64,000 bases of DNA. Origin: an uncultured Dehalococcoidales bacterium. GTDB taxonomy: Bacteria; Chloroflexota; Dehalococcoidia; GIF9; UBA5629. The translations under genes and the position numbers were made by a program. The stretch covers positions 112,254 through 176,253 of the forward strand of contig CAZFIM010000001.1 of assembly GCA_964519615.1 (NCBI GenBank). The letters run 5' to 3'. The notes below the pieces were generated by a model. That model was not told the DNA's origin. It saw nothing but the letters and a program-made list of their open reading frames with translations, and made no database searches. Numbering within the stretch: the stretch's first letter is position 1; every line of letters starts with the position of its first letter. Positions 3,033-28,277 of the stretch are shown piece after piece.

Positions 3033-4385
3033 TTGAAATCTTGTCAGGATATTTGGGATGCGGCTCTGGGCGAAATGGAAATGGAAGTCTCCAGGCCTAA
3101 CTTCGAGACATGGCTTAAAGATACCCGGGGGATAAGCTACGATAGCGATCTTTTTACCGTAGCGGTGCCCAATACATTTATTGCCGAGTGGCTGGAAAAC
3201 CGGCTTCGCTCTCTGATAAAAAAAACATTAGCTACCATTATCGGCCGGAAGGTAAACGTCCAATTTATAGTGCAATCTATAGCCGGAGCTAGCGCTCCAG
3301 TGGCCGCCGGACTGCAAACAGACGGTGGAACCAGCGTCAGGTCGCCCGGACTGGCGCGGCGTGTCAGGGCTGCTGCCAGATATACCTTCAACAACTTCGT
3401 AACAGGCAAGTGCAACAGGCTGGCCTATGCAGCTTCTTTAGAGGTTGCCGAAAATCCCGGCACTATTTATAACCCGCTTTTTATCTACGGTGATACGGGC
3501 GTGGGGAAAACGCATCTTATGCAAGCGATAAGGCAAATGGCCAAAACCAGCGGCTATCATGTGCTCTATGTAAGCACCGAGAAGCTTACGAACGATTTTA
3601 TAGCCGCCATCCGCAGCGGCGAAGCGGAGACGTTCCGCAGTAAATACATCGGCGTGGATTTCTTGCTCGTTGATGATTTTCATTTCCTGAGCGGAAAGAC
3701 TCAAACTCAGGAGTGCTTTTTCCACATTTTTAATGACTGCTATGATGCAGACTGCCAGATTGTCCTCACCTGCGACTGCCCTCCTAAAGCTATCTCTTCC
3801 ATCAACAAGAAGCTGCGCTCGCGGTTGGAGTGGGGCCTGGTAGTGGGTATTGAAAGTCCGGACCTGGAAACGAGGCTCTCAATTCTTGCAGTAAAATCGC
3901 AGCAGCTGAAATTAAAAATTCCTGATGAGACCATGAATTTTATCTCCTCCTGTTTTCCGCATAATATCCGCGAGCTTGAGGGCGGCTTTAACAGGGTGGT
4001 GACATACGCCAAGCTCAGCGGCGCTCCCGTGAATATGGACATTGCCCAGCAGGCTCTGGCAGACCTTGTGCCCTGTGACAAAGAAAAAGATGTTACCCTT
4101 TCACCGCATCATATTGTGGAGATAGTGGCCAGTTACTATAACCTTGAAACGGATGCTCTGAAAAGTAAAAAGAGAGACAGGAATACCGCTTTGGCACGGC
4201 AAGTTGCCATGTATCTGCTGCGAGAGCAAAATAATCTGCCCTTGAACAAAATAGGCAATATTCTCGGAAACCGCGATCACAGCACGGTTCTATATGGATG
4301 TGACAAGATATCCACAGAGATGCAAAATAATGCACAGCTTAAAAAGGCTATTGAAACGCTCATTGACAGCCTTTCTCACAAATAG
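3033..4385 (+). CDS. dnaA: Chromosomal replication initiator DnaA
   Basis: 450 aa; TTG start with GGAG RBS; DnaA N-terminal domain, Walker A GDTGVGKTHL, C-terminal DnaA-box-binding HTH (HSTVLYG). Confidence 0.95.
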   Translation: MKSCQDIWDAALGEMEMEVSRPNFETWLKDTRGISYDSDLFTVAVPNTFIAEWLENRLRSLIKKTLATIIGRKVNVQFIVQSIAGASAPVAAGLQTDGGTSVRSPGLARRVRAAARYTFNNFVTGKCNRLAYAASLEVAENPGTIYNPLFIYGDTGVGKTHLMQAIRQMAKTSGYHVLYVSTEKLTNDFIAAIRSGEAETFRSKYIGVDFLLVDDFHFLSGKTQTQECFFHIFNDCYDADCQIVLTCDCPPKAISSINKKLRSRLEWGLVVGIESPDLETRLSILAVKSQQLKLKIPDETMNFISSCFPHNIRELEGGFNRVVTYAKLSGAPVNMDIAQQALADLVPCDKEKDVTLSPHHIVEIVASYYNLETDALKSKKRDRNTALARQVAMYLLREQNNLPLNKIGNILGNRDHSTVLYGCDKISTEMQNNAQLKKAIETLIDSLSHK

Positions 4386-4645
4386 TAATCCACTTTCTTC
4401 TCTGTTTTTCTGTTAGCAACCCCTGCATAACTCACTGCTGATAAGAAAATTAATGTTTATACACTCTAATAACTTTCACATTGATGCCGCATGTACCACT
4501 TCATTCTATCCACTCTTTGAACATCCGTTAATATTATAGTTATTATAGATACTATATACTATAAACATATAATAGATTGATACTATTATTAATAACTTAA
4601 AGCGCTGCATTGTGCGGCAGATACGGAATAGATACGTGGATAAAG
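4386..4645. other. Candidate oriC: AT-rich unwinding element plus DnaA-box-like 9-mers between dnaA and obg
   Basis: Roughly 4530-4600 is an extremely AT-rich island (tattatagttattatagatactatatactataaacatataatagattgatactattattaataactt). cgTGGATAA at 4635-4643 is an 8/9 match to TGTGGATAA. Weaker 7/9 boxes: TAATCCACT at 4386, CTATCCACT at 4506. Confidence 0.4.
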
Positions 4646-5691
4646 TAGAAATCAATGTAAAATCAGGTGACGGCGGCAATGGAGTGGTTAGTTTCAGACG
4701 TGAGAAATTTGTGCCTTTCGGCGGACCTGACGGAGGGGACGGTGGTGAGGGAGGAGGTGTGTATATAAGGTCTGATCGCAATGTGGATAACCTGTTTATA
4801 TACAGGCATAAGAGGCATTTTAAGGCTGAAAGAGGCAGGGATGGATCAGGGAGCAAAAAGCACGGGAGAAACGGTGAAAATCTGATACTTAAAGTACCTC
4901 TCGGGACGCTTATATATACTGTTGCAGACAGCCGGGAATACTTTCTGGCTGACCTTAACGAGGAAGGTCAGCAGGTATTGGTAGCGAAGGGAGGAAGGGG
5001 AGGTTTAGGCAATGTTCATTTTGCCACACCATCCTATCAGGCTCCTCAGAAAGCGACAAGCGGGGAGAAGGGGAAGGAGGTGGATTTATTGTTAAGTCTT
5101 AAATTGATAGCGGATATAGGCATTATCGGGTATCCCAATGCCGGTAAATCGACTCTTATGTCCGCAGTATCCGCTGCCAGGCCCAAAATAGCCGGTTATC
5201 CGTTTACTACTATCGAGCCTGTACTGGGGGAGGTAGCGGTTGGCAACAGGCATTTTATTATCGCTGAAATACCGGGATTGATTGAGGGTGCGCATAGCGG
5301 AAAAGGTCTCGGACATGATTTCCTCAGGCATGCAGAAAGGACAAAAGTATTAATCCACCTATTGGACGGCAGCTCAAAAACACTTCAGAATGATCTGCTT
5401 ACCCTTTCACAGGAGCTGGAGCTGTACAGTCATGAGCTCGCTGCCAAGGCAATGCTGGTGGTTATAAATAAAATAGACCTTCCCGAGGTAAGTGAAAGGA
5501 AAGCTGATATTGCCCGCGAGTTTTCCTCTGTAGGGATTAATGTCTATTTTATATCGGGCATGTCAGGAGAGGGCGTTGAGGAGCTTTTGAATGATGCGGT
5601 GAAAGTCCTTGCGGAGGTTGAGGGACAAATGAAGAATATCGAACCGCCTCCAAAGATATTTCGCCCGGTGCAAAAGGACGGGAAAGGATGA
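4612..5691 (+). CDS. obg: GTPase Obg/CgtA
   Basis: 359 aa; Obg fold with glycine-rich GDGGNG / GGDGGEGG repeats, G-domain GYPNAGKST, C-terminal extension. True start may be the in-frame GTG at 4636 (VDKVEI...). Confidence 0.9.
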   Translation: MRQIRNRYVDKVEINVKSGDGGNGVVSFRREKFVPFGGPDGGDGGEGGGVYIRSDRNVDNLFIYRHKRHFKAERGRDGSGSKKHGRNGENLILKVPLGTLIYTVADSREYFLADLNEEGQQVLVAKGGRGGLGNVHFATPSYQAPQKATSGEKGKEVDLLLSLKLIADIGIIGYPNAGKSTLMSAVSAARPKIAGYPFTTIEPVLGEVAVGNRHFIIAEIPGLIEGAHSGKGLGHDFLRHAERTKVLIHLLDGSSKTLQNDLLTLSQELELYSHELAAKAMLVVINKIDLPEVSERKADIAREFSSVGINVYFISGMSGEGVEELLNDAVKVLAEVEGQMKNIEPPPKIFRPVQKDGKG

Positions 5692-5692
5692 G

Positions 5693-6292
5693 ATGAAGGC
5701 GGGTATACTGGGAGGGACTTTCGATCCTGTCCATTGCGGCCATCTGGAGATAGCCCGCCGCGCGGCCGGCCAGCTAAAACTGGCAACGGTCATCTTTGTT
5801 CCGGCAGGGCAGCCCTGGTTGAAAACGGACCGCCGTGTTACCGCGGCTCACCACAGGGTCGCTATGCTGAAACTCGCAATGGAAGGCCAGCCCGGCTTTG
5901 AGATTTCCACAACTGAGGTGGAGAGAGAAGGACCGTCTTATACGGTTGATACCCTAAGAGAGATAAGGCGCATTGTGGACAAAAATACGGAGATCTTCTT
6001 CATAGTGGGGTGGGATACATTGGAGGAACTCCCATTATGGAAAGAGCCTGAAGAGCTGGTCCGGCTGTGCCGGCTGGTTGCTGTATCGAGGCCCGGGCAT
6101 CAGAGGCCGGATATTGAGGCTCTTGAGCATGCTGTGCCGGGGATTGTCAAGAGCACTATACTGCTTGAGATACCACCGATAGCTATCAGTTCAACGGAGA
6201 TAAGGGCGTATGTGAAAGCGGGAAAACCGCTGGACCAGCTGGTACCGGAGAAAGTAGCCGGTTATATAGGAATGCACAGACTATACATATAG
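5693..6292 (+). CDS. nadD: Nicotinate-nucleotide adenylyltransferase
   Basis: 199 aa; GGTFDPVHCGHL (HxGH) motif; adjacent to obg as in many bacteria. Confidence 0.85.
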   Translation: MKAGILGGTFDPVHCGHLEIARRAAGQLKLATVIFVPAGQPWLKTDRRVTAAHHRVAMLKLAMEGQPGFEISTTEVEREGPSYTVDTLREIRRIVDKNTEIFFIVGWDTLEELPLWKEPEELVRLCRLVAVSRPGHQRPDIEALEHAVPGIVKSTILLEIPPIAISSTEIRAYVKAGKPLDQLVPEKVAGYIGMHRLYI

Positions 6293-6344
6293 ATGGCAGA
6301 ATTCAAGTGGATGCCTGGCATCTCAGACAACGGCTGTTATGCCG

Positions 6345-8270
6345 CTAAATATCGAGGTTCTTAACGTTTCTAGCGTGTGCCTGGATAAAAGATTTACGCG
6401 GCGGTACTTCACTGCCCATAAGCATATGGAACACGCTGTCCGCTTTAATGGCATCGCTTACCTCCACTTTGAGCAGTGTGCGCGTTTCTGGATTCATAGT
6501 GGTCTGCCAGAGCTGCTCCGGACTCATCTCTCCCAGACCCTTATAGCGCTGTACCTCCACTTTCCTGTCTCCATTAAGCTCTTTGAGTTTTTGGTCACGT
6601 TCTCTGTCCGAGTATATCCAGAACTCTTTTTTACCCGCCTGTATGCGGTAGAGCGGCGGTTGGGCGATGAACAGGTGGCCCTCGTCAATGAGCTCCGGCA
6701 TATTGCGGTAGAAGAAAGTCAGGAGGAGTGTACGTATATGGGCGCCGTCCACATCGGCATCGGTCATGATAATGACACGGTTGTAGCGCAATTTGGAGAA
6801 GTCCGTCTGTTCGCCGATGCCGCTGCCGAGTGCGGTGATAATAGCACGAATCTCTTCGTGAAGCAGGATTTTATCCTGTGCGGCCTTCTCAACATTAAGG
6901 ATTTTCCCGCGCAAGGGCAGTATTGCCTGGAACCGCCGATCTCTTCCTTGTTTGGCTGAACCGCCGGCGGAGTCACCTTCAACAAGGTAGAGCTCGCAAT
7001 GTTCGGCATTTTTTTCAGAGCAGTCCGCCAGTTTACCCGGCAAGGTTCCCAATTCATTGCCGCTCTTTTTAAAGATCATGTCGCGAGCTTTGCGTGCCGC
7101 CTCTCTGGCTTTGGCCGAAACGAGGCATTTATCGATAATCGCTTTAGCGTCATCGGGGTGCTGCTCAAGATAAAGGGAAAGGCCGTCGGCGATAACGGAT
7201 TCGACCTGAGTCTTCACCTCCGGATTACCCAGCTTGGCTTTGGTCTGGCCCTCGAATTGCGGTTCGGATACCTTGACGCTTATTACCGCGGTGAGGCCGT
7301 CTCGAACATCTTCTCCGCTCAAATTGGGGTCTGTTTCTTTGAGCAGTTTGTTCTTGCGTGCATAATCGTTGAGAATTCTGGTCAGAGCTGAGCGGAAACC
7401 GGTCAGATGGCTGCCGCCGTCAATGGTATTCACGCAATTGGCAAAACTGCGCATAGACTCAGCCAGCCCGTTATTGTACTGTAGTGCTGCTTCAACAGTA
7501 GTGCTGTTGACGGCGCCGGACATATAAATGGGAATTTCATGCAAAACATGGCGGTTTCTATTGAAACGCCGTACCAGACTGGCAATGCCTCCCTCAAAAT
7601 AGTATGTCACTTCAAGATCGCGTATATCATCGCGGAAATAGATTTCCAGGTCCTTATTCAGATAGGCCAGTTCCTTAAAACGCTGAGCAAGGATATCGAA
7701 ATCATAGGCGATCTCTCCAAAAATCTCCTCATCAGCCATAAAGGTAATCGTGGTACCGGTGCTGTTTGCAGGACCGATAACTTTCACATCAGCCTGGGGG
7801 ATGCCTCTTTCGTATTGCTGAAAATATACCTGCTCCTGACGCCTGACTTCTACCTTAAGCCAGGAGGACAGTGCATTGACTACGGATGCACCAACGCCGT
7901 GCAGGCCGCTGGAAACCTTATATGTCCCGCCTCCGAACTTAGCGCCGGCATGCAGGATAGTCATCACCGCCTCCAGGGCGGACTTTTTGGTTTCCGGATG
8001 AATATCTACCGGTATACCCCGCCCCTGGTCGGTCACCGTTACAGAGCCATCAGGGTTAATGATGATCTCGGTGCGGTTTGAGCAACCTGCCATTGCCTCA
8101 TCGATGGTGTTGTATACTATTTCATAGACAAGGTGATGCAGTCCGTGCTGGTCTGTACTGCCGATATACATGCCCGGCCGTTTGCGTACCGCCTCCAGTC
8201 CGCCCAGTATACGGATATCCTCAGCATCATAATGCTCGTTGTTATTGTTGTTCATTTTCATTTGTGTCAT
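6345..8270 (-). CDS. gyrB: DNA gyrase subunit B
   Basis: 641 aa; GHKL ATPase, TOPRIM (EGDSAGG) and C-terminal GyrB motifs. Confidence 0.95.
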   Translation of the reverse strand: MTQMKMNNNNNEHYDAEDIRILGGLEAVRKRPGMYIGSTDQHGLHHLVYEIVYNTIDEAMAGCSNRTEIIINPDGSVTVTDQGRGIPVDIHPETKKSALEAVMTILHAGAKFGGGTYKVSSGLHGVGASVVNALSSWLKVEVRRQEQVYFQQYERGIPQADVKVIGPANSTGTTITFMADEEIFGEIAYDFDILAQRFKELAYLNKDLEIYFRDDIRDLEVTYYFEGGIASLVRRFNRNRHVLHEIPIYMSGAVNSTTVEAALQYNNGLAESMRSFANCVNTIDGGSHLTGFRSALTRILNDYARKNKLLKETDPNLSGEDVRDGLTAVISVKVSEPQFEGQTKAKLGNPEVKTQVESVIADGLSLYLEQHPDDAKAIIDKCLVSAKAREAARKARDMIFKKSGNELGTLPGKLADCSEKNAEHCELYLVEGDSAGGSAKQGRDRRFQAILPLRGKILNVEKAAQDKILLHEEIRAIITALGSGIGEQTDFSKLRYNRVIIMTDADVDGAHIRTLLLTFFYRNMPELIDEGHLFIAQPPLYRIQAGKKEFWIYSDRERDQKLKELNGDRKVEVQRYKGLGEMSPEQLWQTTMNPETRTLLKVEVSDAIKADSVFHMLMGSEVPPRKSFIQAHARNVKNLDI

Positions 8271-21795: not shown

Positions 21796-23493
21796 TCACG
21801 TTCTCCGGAACTCTTTTTCCAACTGCCGCGAGCTTAAGTGAACGATGGTAGGGCGGCCGTGGGGGCAGGTGCGCGGCTGCCGGGCCTGCTCAAGCTGCCG
21901 CACGAGCTCTCTCATCTCTTCGATGGTGAGACAATCGCCGGCCTTAACGGCGCTGTGACAGGCTATCGATTGCGCTACTTTTTCCTCCCTTGACAGCGGC
22001 GCCTCCGGGTTGGGTAGAGCATCGAGCAGGGAAAGCACGGACTCGCTCAAGTTTGCATCACTCATAAGAGCGGGGACAGCCCGGAGCAAGTAGCTCCTTT
22101 CGCCGAAATACTCCAGGTTCAATCCGAACTGGCTTAACAGTTCGCCCCTCTCCTTCACCACCTGCTGCTGTCTGGGATTGAGCTCGATCACCAGCGGGTC
22201 CAGCAGCCCCTGCATGTCTATCCGCTGTTGAGCGCGCTGCGCGAGCACCTTCTCAAATAAAATGCGCTCATGGGCGGCATGCTGGTCTATCAGATAAAGC
22301 CCATCCGGCCCCTCTGCCATTATATAGCTGTTTCCCAACTGCCCCACCACCCTGAGAACTGGCAGGCCGAAACTTGGCCGCTCTTCGTCCTCAAGCTTAG
22401 GGACAGGAGGGGATTCAACGGGTATTACCGGCCGGGTCATCTCCTCCTCGGTCCATAAGGAGGAGGGACTTACCGTGGGTTTAGCCGGAGTTTTCACTGC
22501 CGGCGGAGCGGTGCGGTTTATCACCTTGCGCACGGCTGTATATACCGCTTTGTAGACAGCCTGGCTGCCGCGGAATTTCACCTCCGTCTTGGCGGGGTGG
22601 ACGTTAATATCGAGTTCCTCCGGCGGCAGCAGGATGTTGAGTACGATAATAGGATGCTTGCCCGTTAGCAGATAGCCGTGATAGGCGTCTTCAGCAGCCC
22701 TGACAAGCAGACTACTGCGCACCCAGCGGCGGTTGACGAAGAAGCTCAGATAGTTTCTATTTGCACGGCTGAGGGAAGGGGGGCTTGCCAGTCCACGGAT
22801 ACGTATGGGAGGAGCGTTCTCTTCCACTTCCTGCATCTGAAGGGCTGTTTCCAGTCCGTAATTTTCCACCAGCGCATCCCGCAGGTTGCCGTTGCCGGGA
22901 GTGTGCATGGCCGTCTTTCCTTCTATGGAAAGACTGAAACTGACCTCGGGAAAAGCCATGGAATACTGTGTGACCAAGTTGGCGATATGGCTGTTTTCCG
23001 TGGATATGGATTTGAGAAATTTAAGCCTTGCCGGCAGGTGGCGGAAGAGATGGCGGACAGTGATGGTAGTTCCTCGGGTGCGGCTGCCCATCTCCCTGCG
23101 GACGATCTCCCCGTGCGCAAGGCGCATATAGCTTGCCGAGTCCTCGTCTTCCGGCCGGGTGGATATCTCCACATCAGCTACCGCCGCTATGCTGGGAAGG
23201 GCTTCTCCCCTGAAGCCCAGCGTAGAAACTGTATCGAGGTCTGAAAGCCTGCGGATTTTACTGGTGGCATGCCTGGCAAAGGCAATCTCAACCTCCGCGG
23301 CAGGTATGCCGATGCCGTTATCTGTAACCTTGATGAGGCGGGTTCCACCATCGCGGGATTCGACGGCGATATCGGTTGCTCCGGCATCGAGGGCGTTCTC
23401 CACCAGCTCCTTGACCACGGAAGCCGGCCTTTCGACTACCTCTCCAGCCGCAATCCTGGATGCTACCTGCGGCAGCAGCACTTCAATAGACAT
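21796..23493 (-). CDS. mutL: DNA mismatch repair protein MutL
   Basis: 565 aa; GHKL ATPase N-terminus (ENALDAGAT, DNGIGI), C-terminal dimerisation domain. Confidence 0.9.
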   Translation of the reverse strand: MSIEVLLPQVASRIAAGEVVERPASVVKELVENALDAGATDIAVESRDGGTRLIKVTDNGIGIPAAEVEIAFARHATSKIRRLSDLDTVSTLGFRGEALPSIAAVADVEISTRPEDEDSASYMRLAHGEIVRREMGSRTRGTTITVRHLFRHLPARLKFLKSISTENSHIANLVTQYSMAFPEVSFSLSIEGKTAMHTPGNGNLRDALVENYGLETALQMQEVEENAPPIRIRGLASPPSLSRANRNYLSFFVNRRWVRSSLLVRAAEDAYHGYLLTGKHPIIVLNILLPPEELDINVHPAKTEVKFRGSQAVYKAVYTAVRKVINRTAPPAVKTPAKPTVSPSSLWTEEEMTRPVIPVESPPVPKLEDEERPSFGLPVLRVVGQLGNSYIMAEGPDGLYLIDQHAAHERILFEKVLAQRAQQRIDMQGLLDPLVIELNPRQQQVVKERGELLSQFGLNLEYFGERSYLLRAVPALMSDANLSESVLSLLDALPNPEAPLSREEKVAQSIACHSAVKAGDCLTIEEMRELVRQLEQARQPRTCPHGRPTIVHLSSRQLEKEFRRT

Positions 23494-23566
23494 TATCTCT
23501 TCTCTCTATGCCATGTGCCTATGCACCTCCGGCAGCAGTTCAGGGTGGCTGTATACCCAGCCATCG

Positions 23567-24907
23567 CTACGACCTGGGCGGCAGGAACCCTACCGCATCG
23601 ATCTCAATTTTCATTTTTGTGGAGGCCAGGCTCAGGGGGTAGATCACCGTGCTCGCCGGCGGCTCCGCAACAAGGGCGGGAGCGTATTTGCGATAATAGT
23701 CGCGCTCTATCCGTCGGAAAGAATCATATGTGCCGGGATCGGGCAGCAGCACATATGTCTTCATCAGGTGTTCCAGCGTACTGCCGGTTTCCTCCAGCGA
23801 GAATCTCATGCCATCAAGAGCGGTTCTCAACTGATCCTCAAAATTGTCAGATTCGATTCTGGCGGTATAGGGATCTGTTGCCGTCTGGCCCGAGATGTTG
23901 ATAAGGTTGCCGATAACCACGGTATTGGAATAGAATTTCTTGGTATCTCCGGCATGCCTGGGGAATCCTCTGCGGCCCAGATAAAGCGGGTAGTTTTTGA
24001 CCTCCCAGCCTTTGCGATACCTGTTGACCACGCCGATATAGTCAAGCTGCACCTGTGCGCCGGGCAGCGGCAGAGCGGGCAGCTTGAGGAAGGTGCTGGC
24101 CGGGAATTCCTCCATCAGGTACGGTGCGTACATGTCGAAATGCTCAAGTTCTCTTTTCCAGAGACGGTCCGAGGTCGGACTGCCTGAGACATTGGGGTCC
24201 CGCCCCCGCTTAAGCATATTCTCCAGTCCCGCCTGCATATGAAGCGTCTTGATGAGATTGCTGGCGGAGCTTCCCGCTCTATCGAGTGCCCTTATTATCT
24301 TATCGAAAGCAATATCCATTTGCATCTCAAAATTATCCGTCTCTATTTTCCCCGTCTGGGGGCTGGCGCCGCAGAATGCGGGCAAATAGACCAGATTGCC
24401 CACGGCGACGGCCTCAGATGAAGGCAATGTCCCCGGGATACGGCCCTGTTTGGGATATCTGGTTACTTCACATTCCGGCTCATCTGAGCGCAGCACTGCA
24501 TGAGCATCTACCTCTATCAGGCTTTGATCTTGTCCCAGTGCTTTAACCGGCATGACCGTTATTACCGGCGGCTCCTCGATCAGGGAGGGAGCATGCTTAA
24601 GGAAATAGTCCTCCAGCGCCTTTCCCAGCTTCGGGTAGTCCTCCACTTTTGCCAGCATAACGTATAATTTCACAAGATTGGCAAGGGAGCTTCCCGCCCT
24701 CCCCAGCGCCTCTTTGATCTTATCCAGGCTGCCGGCAAGCTGAGCTTCAAAATCCCCGGCCGCAAGAATGCCGGTTTCAGCATCAGCGCTGTCCATCCCC
24801 GATAAATAGACGAGATTTCCTGCCACTGCAGCGCCGGATGCATAAGGTGCGGCGGCTTCTCCGGTGCCGGTTGCCGCTAAAGGATATTTTGTAAGGGTCC
24901 ATTTCAT
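23567..24907 (-). CDS. Triple-domain RidA/YjgF/TdcF-family protein (three tandem endoribonuclease L-PSP domains in one chain)
   Basis: 446 aa. Three roughly 150-aa repeats each carry the RidA-like pattern, for example GNLVYLSGMD...LAKVEDY...IEVDAHAV, GNLVYLPAFCG...IGVV, and GNLINISGQTATD...IEIDAVGF. Confidence 0.7.
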   Translation of the reverse strand: MKWTLTKYPLAATGTGEAAAPYASGAAVAGNLVYLSGMDSADAETGILAAGDFEAQLAGSLDKIKEALGRAGSSLANLVKLYVMLAKVEDYPKLGKALEDYFLKHAPSLIEEPPVITVMPVKALGQDQSLIEVDAHAVLRSDEPECEVTRYPKQGRIPGTLPSSEAVAVGNLVYLPAFCGASPQTGKIETDNFEMQMDIAFDKIIRALDRAGSSASNLIKTLHMQAGLENMLKRGRDPNVSGSPTSDRLWKRELEHFDMYAPYLMEEFPASTFLKLPALPLPGAQVQLDYIGVVNRYRKGWEVKNYPLYLGRRGFPRHAGDTKKFYSNTVVIGNLINISGQTATDPYTARIESDNFEDQLRTALDGMRFSLEETGSTLEHLMKTYVLLPDPGTYDSFRRIERDYYRKYAPALVAEPPASTVIYPLSLASTKMKIEIDAVGFLPPRS

Positions 24908-25460
24908 ATTCTTATTACCTCCCCTTGCTCGATACTCTGAATATTTCGCTTGTCTCAGACAGGTCTATTCCTGAAACATTACCGCCAGGCCTCGATAAAT
25001 TATTACATTTAACCGGTATCCTGTTATACTATATACCGAACTGGATGAACTTTGCCTGCCCCTTCAAGAGATTGGGAAGCATTGATCGGCGATTTGCCTT
25101 GATACGGTAGAAAAATTGTATAATAGGGTATGATGTAAATCAACTATTTTTATAACAGACAAGACATAAACGAGTATTCTCAAAGAAACCGTTCAAATAT
25201 ACTTGCTGCCCCTACAGGAGTCGAAACAATCAAGCCGCACCGGATTATGTTATAGAATCATATCCGTGAGCGGCAAGCGGAAAAAGGGCAGCTTGACTTT
25301 ATTTTTGCAAAGAATTATCATTAATTATTGTTTATGCTATATAATGATATCGTCAAAGACAATTATTATGAAAAAAGTTATACACCCCCTGCATTAATAG
25401 TTATCGCAAATGTGATAGCGCAGGAAGGTTACCCGCAAAAATACTAAAAAAGGAAAAGGA

Positions 25461-25919
25461 ATGATAGACAATATTGATCACAAACTTATTGTGGAACTTC
25501 AGAAAGACGGCCGCGCAAGCTCGGTCAATCTTTCCAAAAAATTGGGCATAAGCATTGCTTCCGCCTCCCGGCGGATCAAACGTTTGGTGCGTGACAACAT
25601 CATCACCATAACTGCTATGCCGGAGCCGTCCAAGGTCGGATTGAGCGCCATGGCTATTATCGCTCTCGATGTCACTATGAACCAGATTGACAGCGTCTGC
25701 GATAAGCTTATCAGCAATAAAAGCGTTCATTTTACGGCGTTGACCTTTGGCCGCTTCGATATTATCGTTAATGTCTATGCATCTTCACCGGAGATGCTGG
25801 TCAATCTCATCAAGAGTGAAATTGCCACTATAGACGGGGTAAGGCATGTGGAAACATTCTACATAGCTGAGCTGAAAAAGCAGACATTTGCCTGGCTGCT
25901 GGATAGAGAACAGGAATAA
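25461..25919 (+). CDS. lrp: Lrp/AsnC-family transcriptional regulator
   Basis: 152 aa; N-terminal HTH (DHKLIVELQKDGRASSVNLSKKLGIS), C-terminal RAM domain. Confidence 0.8.
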   Translation: MIDNIDHKLIVELQKDGRASSVNLSKKLGISIASASRRIKRLVRDNIITITAMPEPSKVGLSAMAIIALDVTMNQIDSVCDKLISNKSVHFTALTFGRFDIIVNVYASSPEMLVNLIKSEIATIDGVRHVETFYIAELKKQTFAWLLDREQE

Positions 25920-26051: not shown

Positions 26052-28277
26052 CTAGCCTTTGCCGCCGGTCTTTTCAATTTTCTCCAGAGGGGCAAGGCTG
26101 AGCAGCAATTTTTTCACGCCCACTCCGGCAAATTCTATTGTGGCCTGCTGGTCTCTGCCGAAGGGCGCGCAGCCGACAACCACCCCTTCTCCGAAGGCGG
26201 TATGACGCACATAATCTCCTACGCTTACCTGTAGAGTCCTGACTCTCTCGGGCGCAGGCTGTACAGGCCTGCTCTCCGCGCGCCTGGAAAAGAGCGAGGT
26301 TATCGGAGTACACTCTATCTCCTCCGGTTCGGCCTCCCTGAGAGTAATATTATGTATCAGATGGCGCGGCACCTCCTGGAGAAAACGGGACGGCTCGCTC
26401 ACTGCGCTCATGCCGAAGAGGCTGCGTCTGAAGGTGTAAAGCAGATAGACCCGGCTTTTGGCTCTGGTAACGCCTACATAGCACAACCGTCTCTCTTCCT
26501 CGATTTCTCCATCCTCTATAGACCTGCGATGAGGCAGCAGCCCCTCCTCAAGTCCCACAATAAAGACAACCGGGAATTCCAGCCCCTTGGCCTGATGCAG
26601 CGTGGTCAGTGTAGCGGCATCGGGCTTTTCCTCCGTTTCGTCTTCCGCCATGACCAGGCTGACCTTTTCCAGAAAAGCAGCAAGCGCTTCATCCTGTTCC
26701 AGCCAGTTATATTCCCGTGCAACCGTCCGCAATTCAAGGATATTCTCCCAGCGATCTTTGCCTTCCTCGTCCGCAAGGATGTAGTCCTTATATCCGGACG
26801 AACCGATGACTTCATCAAGAAGTCCGCTTAAGGGAAGCTGCCGGCTTTTTTCAATAAGGTGCGAAAGCAGACGGTAAAAACCTGAAACGGCAAGAGCAGC
26901 CCGTGCCCCCAATTGCGGCCCGGTGTCATCGGACAGCTTGCTCACCGCCTGATACAGGCTGCCGCCGTTGGCACCGGCCCATGAGCTAAGCTCATTTACG
27001 GTACGGGGTCCTATTCCGCGCCCGGGTGTATTGATAATCCGGCTTAAGCTGATATTATCATCGGGATTATGAATGAACTTGAGATAGGCGATAACATCCT
27101 TGATCTCCCGTCTCTGGTAGAAACGCAGCCCGCCGACCAGTCTGTAGGGTATGCCGTGCCGCATGAAAGCCTCTTCCAGCGCACGCGATTGAGCGTTGAC
27201 CCTGAACATCACTGCACAATCGAGCGGTGAAATACCGTGCTCCCTTTTCAACCGGTCTATTTCGCTCACTACATACTGCGCCTCTTCGCCCTCATTATAG
27301 GTCTGGACCACTGTGGTCAGCGCTCCAGCAGCATTCTCCGTTCTTAAAGGCTTTGGTTTTCTCTGAATGTTTGCCGAGATAATGCAGGAGGCTACCTGAA
27401 GGATGTTCTGCGTAGAACGGTAGTTTTGGTCCAGCACGATCACTCTGGCATCGGGAAAATCGCGCTCGAAACTGAGAATATTGCGTATATCGGCATATCT
27501 CCACGAGTAGATGGATTGGTCGGGATCGCCGACCACGCAAATATTTTTATACAGGCCGCCGAGATGCTTGATCAGCCTGTACTGTGTGATGCTGGTGTCC
27601 TGGAATTCATCGACCATGAGGTGCAGGTAGCGTTTCTGATAACGGGATGCTATATCCGCATGCTGTTCGAACAGCAGCACCGTTTTCATGAGCAGGTCCT
27701 CGAAATCCACCGTCTGGCTCTGCTGGAGGTGCTTCTGGTAGCGTTCATAGACCCGGCCGACGATCTCCTCGAAATAGCTGCTTGTTGATCGAGCGTAGTC
27801 ATCAGGTGTGAGGAGCTGGCTTTTCGCCTGGACGATCGCGTTCTGAATAGATTTGGGAGTATACTGTTTGGGATCGATGCCCAGCTCCTGCAGGCTTTGC
27901 TTGATTACCCGCACCTGGTCGTCATCGTCAAATATAGTATAGCGCGGTTCCAGTCCGATAGCGGAACCATCCTCGCGCAAAATGCGCGCACAGATGGAAT
28001 GGAAGGTTCCCATCGCAGGCGGCTCAGCGGACTTGCCCAAAAGCTTTTCCAGCCTCTCCTGCATTTCCCGGGCTGCCTTGTTGGTAAAGGTGACGGCCAT
28101 TATGCGGTGAGGGCTGATGCCGCATACTTTCACAAGATAGGCTATCCGGTGAGTAATAACCCTTGTTTTACCGCTGCCCGGCCCCGCCAGTATAAGCACA
28201 GGCCCTTCTATGGTTTCTACTGCTTCCCTTTGCGCGGGATTGAGGTCGGCTAAAATTTCACGGGGAGATTGTGGCAT
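26052..28277 (-). CDS. pcrA: ATP-dependent DNA helicase PcrA/UvrD
   Basis: 741 aa; SF1 helicase motifs (AGPGSGKT, DEFQDT, VGDPDQSIY, TLHQAKGLEF). Confidence 0.9.
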   Translation of the reverse strand: MPQSPREILADLNPAQREAVETIEGPVLILAGPGSGKTRVITHRIAYLVKVCGISPHRIMAVTFTNKAAREMQERLEKLLGKSAEPPAMGTFHSICARILREDGSAIGLEPRYTIFDDDDQVRVIKQSLQELGIDPKQYTPKSIQNAIVQAKSQLLTPDDYARSTSSYFEEIVGRVYERYQKHLQQSQTVDFEDLLMKTVLLFEQHADIASRYQKRYLHLMVDEFQDTSITQYRLIKHLGGLYKNICVVGDPDQSIYSWRYADIRNILSFERDFPDARVIVLDQNYRSTQNILQVASCIISANIQRKPKPLRTENAAGALTTVVQTYNEGEEAQYVVSEIDRLKREHGISPLDCAVMFRVNAQSRALEEAFMRHGIPYRLVGGLRFYQRREIKDVIAYLKFIHNPDDNISLSRIINTPGRGIGPRTVNELSSWAGANGGSLYQAVSKLSDDTGPQLGARAALAVSGFYRLLSHLIEKSRQLPLSGLLDEVIGSSGYKDYILADEEGKDRWENILELRTVAREYNWLEQDEALAAFLEKVSLVMAEDETEEKPDAATLTTLHQAKGLEFPVVFIVGLEEGLLPHRRSIEDGEIEEERRLCYVGVTRAKSRVYLLYTFRRSLFGMSAVSEPSRFLQEVPRHLIHNITLREAEPEEIECTPITSLFSRRAESRPVQPAPERVRTLQVSVGDYVRHTAFGEGVVVGCAPFGRDQQATIEFAGVGVKKLLLSLAPLEKIEKTGGKG

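What the first reader, a model, noticed from the sequence alone, without database searches (positions are those of the whole stretch)
23567..25919. Single-chain pseudo-trimeric RidA: three tandem YjgF/RidA domains in one 446-aa polypeptide, divergent from an Lrp regulator
RidA/YjgF enamine-imine deaminases are obligate homotrimers whose active sites form at subunit interfaces. Here three complete RidA-like domains of about 150 aa each are concatenated in one ORF with no stop or frameshift. Each has the G-N-L-(V/I)-x-(L/I)-S-G...E-(V/I)-D-A pattern, yet they have diverged from each other, so a covalent heterotrimer could hold three non-equivalent active sites. The gene is divergently paired with an Lrp/AsnC regulator across an unusually long (about 550 bp) AT-rich intergenic region. 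This suggests amino-acid-responsive control of a reactive-enamine detoxification or deamination activity.
Basis: partly seen in the sequence, partly recalled or inferred. Interest (0 to 1): 0.55.

Follow-up and report, generated by a model that had tools for sequence, protein, structure and literature searches.

The report
Three-domain Rid protein lacking catalytic arginine
The gene really encodes three fused Rid/YjgF domains that are predicted to fold into one closed trimer-like unit, but this fusion type was named in 2015 and is common, and all three domains lack the arginine that RidA imine deaminases need, so it is probably not a RidA-type detoxifying enzyme.

Summary
ORF 23567-24907 (-) encodes 446 aa with three Rid (PF01042) domains, each passing Pfam's threshold alone. 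They are 30-33% identical as protein and unrelated as DNA. An Lrp/AsnC gene lies divergently across a 553-bp AT-rich spacer.

- The architecture is known: Niehaus et al. 2015 named it "3x-RidA". 170 of the 237 relatives fetched have three Rid domains.
- No domain keeps the catalytic Arg105 (Ile116, Ser271, Ser419). Only domain 3 keeps the signature of this Arg-less subfamily (Tyr326, Arg398, Glu435), so I infer one working pocket and two degenerate ones.
- The Lrp neighbour occurs only in the window's own narrow lineage. Elsewhere the family sits beside pyrogallol-transhydroxylase-like molybdoenzymes and aromatic-acid catabolic genes.

Verdict: a new member of a known, uncharacterised kind and probably not a canonical imine deaminase. 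Its substrate is unknown. Interest is modest.

The parts
23567..24907 (-). Gene for the 446-aa triple-Rid (3x-Rid) protein, stop codon included
   Evidence: PF01042 x3; 100% identical to P0240 (NCBI). AF2 pLDDT 93.9, pTM 0.93.
24476..24904 (-). Domain 1 (residues 2-144). It is the fastest-evolving domain. The Arg105-equivalent is Ile116 and the Asn88-equivalent is Gly95 (Trp in most of the clade).
   Evidence: 66 bits; only 33-59% identical to domain 1 of clade members..
24014..24475 (-). Domain 2 (residues 145-298). It has an 18-residue insertion (228-245) and a conserved R-x-W-K-x-E-L motif (248-254). The Arg105-equivalent is Ser271 (invariant in the clade), the Asn88-equivalent is Trp250 and the Glu120-equivalent is Gln287.
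   Evidence: 29.2 bits..
23570..24013 (-). Domain 3 (residues 299-446). It has a conserved N-terminal R-G-F-P-x-H-x-G loop (313-320) and keeps Tyr326, Ser339, Gly340, Gln341, Arg398 (Asn88-equivalent), Ser419 (Arg105-equivalent) and Glu435.
   Evidence: 58.1 bits..
24908..25460 (.). 553-bp AT-rich divergent intergenic region with three blocks conserved in the 74%-identical relative L005
   Evidence: GC 33-40%; alignment; no Rfam match; leader z = -0.44.
25115..25143 (-). Promoter-like site TTGATT-17-TACAAT for the Rid gene, inside a 42-nt block nearly identical in L005. It implies a leader of about 200 nt.
   Evidence: This is a consensus match plus conservation. The start of transcription was not shown.
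25293..25321 (+). Promoter-like site TTGACT-17-TATCAT for the Lrp/AsnC gene, in a block conserved in L005
25203..25222 (.). Conserved GC-rich 20-mer CTTGCTGCCCCTACAGGAGT between the two divergent promoter-like sites. It is a candidate operator.
   Evidence: Its function is inferred only.
25461..25919 (+). Lrp/AsnC-family regulator gene, 152 aa
   Evidence: HTH_AsnC-type 45.1 bits, AsnC_trans_reg 33 bits, AsnC_trans_reg_3 39 bits; 92% identical in L005.
21796..23493 (-). mutL, 73 bp downstream on the same strand. It may be co-transcribed, and the adjacency is conserved in L005, L090 and L170.
   Evidence: No terminator-like site was found in the gap.

Best explanation
The gene encodes a covalently fused pseudo-heterotrimer of the Rid/YjgF fold. 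It belongs to an Arg105-less, 'Ser105/Arg88' branch of the Rid superfamily.

One ancient triplication of a roughly 145-aa, presumably homotrimeric ancestor produced a clade of about 460-aa proteins. After that the three copies diverged asymmetrically.
- Domain 3 kept the ancestral pocket residues (Tyr326, Ser339-Gly340-Gln341, Arg398, Glu435) and gained a conserved Arg/His loop (RGFPxHxG, 313-320).
- Domains 1 and 2 replaced the pocket arginine with a bulky Trp (Gly95 in this protein's domain 1), and domain 1 drifts fastest.

I therefore infer that only one of the three inter-domain clefts, the one built on domain 3 and probably completed by the invariant Ser271-Thr272-Phe273 strand of domain 2, still binds or transforms a small, probably carboxylate- or phenol-bearing metabolite. 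The other two domains would serve mainly as scaffold, as in chorismatases.

Because the arginine required for imine hydrolysis is missing everywhere, the protein is unlikely to be a RidA-type 2-aminoacrylate/imine deaminase. Across the family the genes lie in anaerobic aromatic or organic-acid catabolic clusters. In this genome the gene instead sits between an Lrp/AsnC regulator and mutL, and the Lrp protein may control it.

Shown: the three domains, their divergence, the positional correspondence of domains across the clade, loss of Arg105, the asymmetry of conservation, the predicted compact fold, and the neighbourhood statistics.
Inferred: a single functional pocket, which interface it occupies, the type of ligand, and regulation by Lrp.
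For: - Three domains.
- One shared triplication: in about 80 proteins of 430-486 aa each domain best matches the same-position domain of the window protein. Domains 2 and 3 are mostly 50-88% identical to the window's (38-88% overall), against 23-56% between domains of one protein.
- Arg105-equivalent across 81 clade sequences: domain 1 Val/Ile 67, domain 2 Ser 81/81, domain 3 Ser 69. In this protein the residues are Ile116, Ser271 and Ser419.
- Asn88-equivalent: Trp 75/81 in domain 1, Trp 81/81 in domain 2, Arg 75/81 in domain 3. Domain 3 also keeps Tyr17 81/81, Gly31 81/81 and Glu120 80/81.
- Single-domain relatives and independently triplicated relatives carry Arg88 (18/29 and 33/45), Ser105 (10/29 and 33/45) and Glu120 (22/29 and 34/45). 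This is the likely ancestral state, although Ser105 is only the plurality residue in the single-domain set.
- Positions conserved in at least 90% of sequences: 15 in domain 1, 29 in domain 2, 31 in domain 3.
- R105A nearly abolishes RidA activity, and Arg-less Rid7 is inactive on imines (PMC4433059).
- Neighbourhoods: AhtL-like_1st + Molybdopterin + Molydop_binding enzymes lie within 4 genes in 8/38 clade loci (immediately downstream in 5 of the 33 loci that have a downstream gene), in 10/49 other triple loci and in 13/44 single-domain loci. PaaK-like ligase, M20 peptidase, TRAP/MFS transporters, HpaB, CoA-transferases, xanthine-dehydrogenase-type subunits, SDR, BKACE and hydantoinase A/B also recur.
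Against: - TIGR00004 ('Rid family detoxifying hydrolase') scores 113 bits summed over the three stretches, just above its 106.25 cut-off. Niehaus et al. note that about 10% of RidA-subfamily proteins have Ser at this position, and their activity is untested, so some imine-related activity cannot be excluded.
- This particular gene is not in a catabolic cluster. The 64-kb window has no AthL-like gene and no other Rid gene.
- The AthL association is present in only about a fifth to a third of loci, and I had no genome-wide background rate for it.
- There is no experimental datum for any member of the clade.
Confidence: 0.55

Rival explanations
1. The protein is a single-chain RidA enamine/imine deaminase with three different active sites. 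It detoxifies reactive enamines from amino-acid metabolism and is controlled by the adjacent amino-acid-sensing Lrp regulator.
For: - PF01042 x3.
- The TIGR00004 summed score of 113 is above its cut-off of 106.25.
- Several sources label relatives '2-iminobutanoate/2-iminopropanoate deaminase'; these are automatic names.
- A divergent Lrp/AsnC gene is conserved in the closest relative.
Against: - The arginine essential for imine hydrolysis (PMC4433059) is replaced by Ile116, Ser271 and Ser419. It is absent from all domains in 94 of 96 clade and near-clade proteins.
- The equivalog models are far below cut-off: NF008490 at 51.6 against 222, RutC at 59.3 against 169.1.
- No threonine dehydratase, PLP enzyme or amine oxidase appears among the recurrent neighbours.
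- Lrp linkage is limited to one narrow lineage.
Confidence: 0.12
2. The protein is a non-catalytic ligand-binding or scaffold protein. It would be a pseudo-trimeric Rid-fold module that senses a small molecule or binds a partner protein, for example an AthL-like molybdoenzyme or a regulator. This would be comparable to FIST domains or to the regulatory role proposed for YabJ.
For: - Two of the three pockets look degenerate.
- The gene sits beside regulators here (Lrp upstream, a PAS/HD-domain protein downstream of mutL).
Against: - Domain 3 keeps a set of polar residues typical of a small-molecule site (Tyr, Arg, Glu and a conserved His/Arg loop), with 90-100% conservation across proteins only 42-55% identical overall.
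- Neighbours in relatives are mostly enzymes and transporters in operon-like order.
Confidence: 0.2
3. The protein is a chorismatase-like hydrolase or lyase (FkbO/Hyg5/XanB2 type) acting on chorismate.
Against: - Sequence identity is only 11-13%.
- No chorismatase family was detected by Pfam or NCBIfam at E up to 1.
- Chorismatases are about 330 aa, whereas all three units here are clear PF01042 domains.
- No shikimate-pathway or polyketide context was found.
Confidence: 0.03
4. The three repeats are an assembly or sequencing artefact, meaning a collapsed or expanded tandem duplication.
For: None. A near-identical relative (L170) has the gene split into two ORFs.
Against: - The repeats have no DNA similarity.
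- About 80 relatives at 42-78% identity have the same three positionally matching domains.
- An identical protein exists on an independent NCBI contig.
- The L170 split is due to 1-3-nt indels in homopolymer or G-rich runs, in an assembly with 9 gap openings in 6.9 kb.
Confidence: 0.01

Closest known systems
3x-RidA (Niehaus et al. 2015, BMC Genomics 16:382; example EF_0115 of Enterococcus faecalis V583)
   Same: Three Rid/YjgF domains are fused head to tail in one polypeptide and presumed to form a covalently linked trimer unit.
   Different: - The published class was described as a subset of the RidA subfamily. Arg-bearing triples such as P0128 and P0131, with PAR(S/T/A) in all three domains, fit that description.
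- The window's clade lacks Arg105 in every domain and its domains are only about 30% identical to each other.
- It shows no positional domain correspondence with other triple clades, which have higher internal identity (up to 96%). That indicates separate triplication events.
- EF_0115 itself could not be fetched, so it was not compared directly.
RidA / TdcF / UK114 homotrimeric imine deaminases (e.g. E. coli YjgF, PDB 1qu9; TdcF, 2uyn)
   Different: The protein is a single chain, not three. Arg105 is absent from all domains, and Asn88 is replaced by Trp, Trp and Arg. The gene context lacks PLP enzymes.
Chorismatases FkbO/Hyg5 (PDB 4bps, 5a3k, 5ag3)
   Different: Sequence identity is 11-13% and they are about 330 aa. 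The chorismatase repeats are no longer recognisable as three PF01042 domains, and the window protein has no chorismatase family match.
Arg-less Rid subfamilies (Rid4-Rid7) and the Ser-for-Arg minority of RidA (Niehaus et al. 2015)
   Same: They lack the catalytic arginine. Their function is unknown and presumed not to be imine hydrolysis.
   Different: Rid4 and Rid7 have Trp at the Arg105 position, whereas here it is Ser or Ile. Assignment to a numbered CDD subfamily was not possible with the tools available.
Cyanuric acid hydrolase/barbiturase and the FIST domain (PDB 5hwe, 8ua3)
   Same: They are other single-chain pseudo-three-fold derivatives of the YjgF-like fold.

Membership tests
Rid / YjgF / YER057c / UK114 superfamily (Pfam PF01042) | Match to the PF01042 profile above the gathering score | tested here: met
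   Whole protein 144 bits. The thirds alone score 66.0, 29.2 and 58.1 bits against 27.3.
Rid / YjgF / YER057c / UK114 superfamily (Pfam PF01042) | Chorismate-mutase-like beta-alpha-beta-alpha-beta-beta domain fold | tested here: met
RidA subfamily (imine/enamine deaminase) | Conserved arginine equivalent to Arg105 of E. coli RidA/TdcF, which binds the substrate carboxylate | tested here: not met
   Ile116, Ser271 and Ser419. Across the clade: Val/Ile in domain 1, Ser 81/81 in domain 2, Ser 69/81 in domain 3. The reference sequence was verified against 1qu9.
RidA subfamily (imine/enamine deaminase) | Score above the curated cut-off of NCBIfam RidA-type models | tested here: inconclusive
   The TIGR00004 subfamily model scores 113 against 106.25, but only as the sum of three stretches. 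Equivalog NF008490 scores 51.6 against 222 and RutC TIGR03610 scores 59.3 against 169.1, so both fail.
RidA subfamily (imine/enamine deaminase) | Imine/enamine hydrolase activity | not testable with these tools
   This needs an enzyme assay.
3x-RidA architecture (Niehaus et al. 2015) | Three Rid domains fused in tandem in one polypeptide | tested here: met
   The definition is quoted.
3x-RidA architecture (Niehaus et al. 2015) | Domains assemble as an intramolecular trimer | tested here: inconclusive
3x-RidA architecture (Niehaus et al. 2015) | Common descent with the named example EF_0115 | not tested
   The EF_0115 sequence could not be obtained. Other triple clades show no positional domain correspondence with this one, which suggests recurrent independent triplications.
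Chorismatase (FkbO/Hyg5/XanB2) | Sequence membership in a chorismatase family model | tested here: not met
   Only PF01042 and Rid-type NCBIfam models were found at E up to 1. Identity to the solved chorismatases is 11-13%.
Chorismatase (FkbO/Hyg5/XanB2) | Single-chain pseudo-three-fold YjgF-like fold | tested here: met
Lrp/AsnC regulator (the neighbouring gene 25461-25919) | N-terminal AsnC-type HTH plus C-terminal AsnC/RAM ligand-binding domain | tested here: met
   PF13404 45.1 bits, PF01037 33 bits, PF22482 39 bits. All NCBIfam equivalogs are far below cut-off, so no specific orthologue is assigned.

The most novel reading that the evidence does not exclude
The roughly 460-aa clade would be a distinct, uncharacterised enzyme family. 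A covalent Rid trimer has been reduced to one specialised active site, built on domain 3 with Tyr326, Arg398, Glu435 and the RGFPxH loop. The carboxylate-binding arginine would have moved from position 105 of one subunit to position 88 of its neighbour. The family would catalyse a new, non-deaminase reaction, for example tautomerisation or hydrolysis of a polyhydroxy-aromatic or diketo intermediate. It would act as an accessory to pyrogallol-transhydroxylase-like molybdoenzymes in anaerobic polyphenol and aromatic-acid breakdown by sediment Chloroflexota, Desulfobacterota and Bathyarchaeia.
Probability: 0.2. Interest if true: 0.6.

Novelty: new member of a known kind. Interest (0 to 1): 0.3.

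Why it matters
This is mainly a caution against annotation by family name. Automatic pipelines call these proteins '2-iminobutanoate/2-iminopropanoate deaminase', yet they lack the residue that activity depends on.

The clade is also a clean natural example of what happens once a homotrimer is fused. The three formerly identical sites are freed to diverge, and here two appear to decay while one is kept. That is the route thought to have led to chorismatases, cyanuric acid hydrolases and FIST domains.

The recurrent pairing of this Arg-less Rid branch, both single-domain and triple, with AthL-like molybdoenzymes could point to a missing step in anaerobic polyphenol degradation. For this particular gene that link is indirect.

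Tried and rejected
- Assembly artefact: rejected.
- Riboswitch or structured leader in the 553-bp spacer: no Rfam match at E up to 1. The putative 204-nt leader folds no better than shuffles (z = -0.44). It is not conserved beyond its first 40 nt or so in L005.
- Lrp linkage as a family trait: phmmer and tblastn with the window's Lrp against all loci found it only in WIN and L005. L170, fetched later, also has it.
- Chorismatase membership: rejected on sequence.
- Exact look-up of the window protein found no record, although an identical protein, P0240, is in the cluster table.
- The AFDB Foldseek library was unavailable, so named full-length AlphaFold matches such as EF_0115 could not be retrieved.
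- Literature searches for '3x-RidA'/'EF_0115' follow-up work and for any Rid-transhydroxylase link found nothing beyond the 2015 paper.
- Model coordinates are not exposed, so I could not determine which domain pairs with which at each cleft.
- My DNA reference 23567-24904:- dropped Met1 instead of the stop codon. Residue numbers in alignment A1 and in the model are therefore protein numbering minus 1. All residue numbers in this report are corrected.
Full report
**1. What is in the sequence**

The minus-strand ORF 23567-24907 encodes a 446-aa protein. It starts with ATG and has GGAGG about 10 nt upstream.

Pfam finds only PF01042 (Ribonuc_L-PSP, the Rid/YjgF family), in three stretches. Scanned separately, the thirds score 66.0, 29.2 and 58.1 bits, and each is above the 27.3-bit gathering score. 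A single-domain HMM places the domains at residues 2-143, 146-298 and 300-446.

The thirds are 30-33% identical as protein (E 2e-17 to 3e-25). They share no meaningful DNA similarity, and Tandem Repeats Finder reports nothing. An identical protein (P0240) lies on a 186-kb NCBI contig. An independent assembly is 99.07% identical over 6.9 kb. The triplication is therefore real and old.

On the other strand, ORF 25461-25919 encodes a 152-aa Lrp/AsnC-type regulator (HTH_AsnC-type plus AsnC_trans_reg). The 553-bp spacer has 33-40% GC, against about 54% in the genes. The one small exception is that domain 2 does not carry the full quoted motif (it reads LPAF for LSG and QLDY for EVDA).

**2. The architecture is already known and common**

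Niehaus et al. [quoted passage not shown] EF_0115 in Enterococcus faecalis V583)". [quoted passage not shown] I found no later work on this class in the library.

A word-indexed search returned 90 relatives, nearly all 430-486 aa. An exhaustive phmmer search of 1.84 billion cluster representatives gave 1610 hits at E up to 1e-3. More than 70 of the best 150 are 370-460 aa with three matched stretches. Of the 237 proteins fetched, 170 have three Rid domains. No solved structure of a sequence relative with three recognisable Rid domains turned up, because every PDB sequence match is a chain of 123-156 aa.

**3. The predicted fold**

AlphaFold2 with a 75-sequence alignment gives mean pLDDT 93.9 and pTM 0.93 for 445 residues. 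A pTM that high requires a confidently fixed arrangement of the three domains. Each domain has the Rid beta-alpha-beta-alpha-beta-beta pattern plus an extra N-terminal strand (the W-E-V-K-K-Y-P segment).

[quoted passage not shown] So the model has the shape of a closed pseudo-trimer. I could not open the coordinates, so this is a prediction judged by scores, not by inspected contacts.

**4. It is not a canonical RidA**

I aligned all domains of the clade with E. coli RidA. That reference sequence was verified as identical to PDB 1qu9.

The arginine that binds the substrate carboxylate is Arg105. Its mutation nearly abolishes imine hydrolysis, and its absence defines the inactive Rid4-7 groups. 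In this protein it is replaced by Ile116, Ser271 and Ser419. Across 81 clade sequences the position is Val/Ile in domain 1, Ser in 81/81 for domain 2 and Ser in 69/81 for domain 3. Among 96 clade and near-clade proteins, 94 have no Arg in any domain.

The NCBIfam equivalogs for enamine/imine deaminase and RutC are far below their cut-offs. TIGR00004 passes only as a sum over three stretches. Niehaus et al. noted that about 10% of RidA-subfamily proteins carry Ser at this position and may differ in function.

**5. One ancient triplication followed by asymmetric divergence**

On 148 aligned columns, about 80 proteins of 430-486 aa show positional correspondence. Their domain 1, 2 and 3 best match domain 1, 2 and 3 of the window protein. 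Domains 2 and 3 are mostly 50-88% identical to the window's (38-88% overall), while domains within one protein are 23-56% identical. The triplication therefore predates the clade.

Outside the clade, triple proteins show no such correspondence and have higher internal identity. Examples are P0134 with domains 2 and 3 at 96%, P0092 at 79% and P0100 at 82%. Triplication, or homogenisation of the copies, has therefore happened repeatedly in the superfamily.

Within the clade the domains are unequal. Domain 1 is only 33-59% identical to the window's domain 1. Positions conserved in at least 90% of sequences number 15, 29 and 31 for domains 1, 2 and 3.

Single-domain relatives of about 135-150 aa and the independently triplicated relatives share a signature: Tyr/Phe17, Ser30, Gly31, Arg at the Asn88 position (18/29 and 33/45), Ser at the Arg105 position (10/29 and 33/45, so only a plurality in the single-domain set) and Glu120. 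In the clade only domain 3 retains it (Tyr 81/81, Gly 81/81, Arg 75/81, Glu 80/81). Domains 1 and 2 have Trp at the Asn88 position (75/81 and 81/81), and domain 2 has mostly Gln for Glu120.

Domain 3 also has a clade-specific conserved loop, R313-G-F-P-x-H318-x-G320, just before Tyr326. Domain 2 has an 18-residue insertion followed by conserved R248-x-W250-K251-x-E253-L254.

In RidA trimers each pocket is built from the 17/30/88 side of one subunit and the 105/107/120 side of its neighbour. This is established knowledge from the TdcF and hp14.5 structures cited. From it I infer that one cleft, built on domain 3, is preserved and probably completed by the invariant Ser271-Thr272-Phe273 strand of domain 2. 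I further infer that the other two clefts are degenerate. An arginine at position 88 could take over carboxylate binding in the same cleft. These last steps are inference.

**6. Gene context**

In this genome the order is uvrD/pcrA (26052-28277, -), lrp (+), 3x-Rid (-), mutL (21796-23493, -, 73 bp downstream with no terminator-like site between them) and a PAS/HD-domain protein.

The 74%-identical relative L005 has exactly the same order. The 99%-identical L170 does too, and the 78%-identical L090 has mutL downstream. Searching all called genes and all six frames of 170 loci with the window's Lrp found it only in the window and L005. Lrp linkage is therefore a feature of one narrow lineage, in which the whole housekeeping block keeps the same gene order.

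For the rest of the family I called genes in 170 loci and clustered neighbours within 4 genes. The commonest neighbour is a 700-866-aa enzyme with AhtL-like_1st, Molybdopterin and Molydop_binding domains, which resembles the large subunit of pyrogallol hydroxytransferase. Its frequency is as follows:
- 8 of 38 non-redundant clade loci, and immediately downstream on the same strand in 5 of the 33 loci that have a downstream gene;
- 10 of 49 other triple loci;
- 13 of 44 single-domain loci;
- 35 of 676 neighbour genes overall.

A Fer4_11 plus CarboxypepD_reg small subunit accompanies it in 7 loci.

Other recurrent neighbours are a PaaK-like AMP ligase, an M20 peptidase, TRAP and MFS transporters, HpaB, family-III CoA-transferases, a zinc alcohol dehydrogenase and xanthine-dehydrogenase-type subunits. 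In the other triple clades they are further triple-Rid paralogues in tandem (13/49 loci), SDR, BKACE, amidohydrolase, hydantoinase A/B and an OYE-type reductase.

Transhydroxylase operons are known in sediment Chloroflexi (PMC3971608), and the SDR/cyclohydrolase/lyase pathway for phloroglucinol has been described (PMC10470551). No paper in the library connects Rid proteins with them. None of the recurrent neighbours is a PLP enzyme. The window itself has no AthL-like gene and no second Rid gene, so this theme reaches the window's gene only by homology.

**7. The spacer**

Three blocks are conserved between the window and L005:
- a 42-nt block containing TTGATT-17-TACAAT (25143-25115, minus strand), which would give the Rid gene a leader of about 200 nt;
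- a block containing TTGACT-17-TATCAT (25293-25321, plus strand), upstream of lrp;
- a GC-rich 20-mer (25203-25222) between them.

There is no Rfam match and no excess folding energy in the leader (z = -0.44). Regulation of the Rid gene by the Lrp protein is plausible from the divergent layout, but nothing I could run supports it directly.

**8. Verdict**

The headline idea of a single-chain pseudo-trimer was published as a class in 2015, and such proteins are abundant. The functional label does not hold, because the catalytic arginine is missing from all three domains and the family's context is anaerobic aromatic and organic-acid catabolism.

This analysis adds three results:
- the clade stems from one ancient triplication;
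- its domains have diverged asymmetrically, so that only domain 3 keeps the ancestral pocket signature;
- the Arg-less branch as a whole is often adjacent to transhydroxylase-like molybdoenzymes.

I file the protein as a new member of a known, uncharacterised kind, with modest interest (0.3). The most novel reading I cannot exclude is a new Rid-fold activity linked to polyphenol breakdown. I give it a probability of about 0.2.

Noticed in passing
L107:3238-9501: Three triple-Rid genes lie head to tail (3238-4566, 4659-5924, 5995-7374), followed by a hydantoinase A gene. In 13 of 49 non-clade triple loci a further triple-Rid paralogue lies within 4 genes.
   Followed up: partly
L170:2516-3854 (GCA_030153525.1, JASEKR010017255.1), which corresponds to window 23567-24907: In a 99%-identical relative the same gene is called as two ORFs of 120 and 309 aa. 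The cause is a 1-nt insertion in a T run and a 3-nt loss in a G-rich run. That assembly shows 9 gap openings in 6.9 kb, so these are most likely assembly indel errors and not a real pseudogene.
   Followed up: yes
window 25203-25222 and 25056-25070: The GC-rich 20-mer CTTGCTGCCCCTACAGGAGT sits between the two divergent promoter-like sites and is conserved in L005. A degenerate second copy 150 bp away is not conserved. It may be an operator, but it does not resemble the AT-rich Lrp consensus I recall from memory.
   Followed up: partly
window 25461-25919 compared with L005:5178-5639: The Lrp/AsnC protein is 92% identical between the window and L005. The flanking triple-Rid and MutL proteins are only 74% and 76% identical, so the regulator is under much tighter constraint.
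   Followed up: no
L026-L089 (single-domain Rid relatives in GTDB genomes): Single-domain proteins of about 145 aa from the same Arg-less branch, in Actinomycetota, Dehalococcoidia and Bathyarchaeia, also lie within 4 genes of AthL-like molybdoenzymes in 13 of 44 loci. The association belongs to the whole branch and not to the fusion.
   Followed up: partly
P0134 (WP_279352627.1, Lysinibacter sp. HNR), P0092, P0100: Some triple-Rid proteins contain nearly identical domains (96%, 79% and 82% identity). This indicates very recent internal duplication or gene conversion, so triplication recurs in the superfamily.
   Followed up: partly
P0131 (EukProt, Lacrimia lanifica transcriptome): An Arg-bearing triple RidA (PAR motif in all three domains) comes from a eukaryotic (diplonemid) transcriptome, so the fusion is not confined to prokaryotes, unless it is a contaminant.
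   Followed up: no
P0119 (803 aa) and P0124 (842 aa): These are longer proteins with four and three Rid domains respectively, plus extra unassigned sequence. Their other domains were not examined.
   Followed up: no
window 23494-23566: Only 73 bp separate the triple-Rid stop codon from the mutL start codon on the same strand, with no terminator-like site. The adjacency is conserved in L005, L090 and L170, so the two genes may be co-transcribed.
   Followed up: partly
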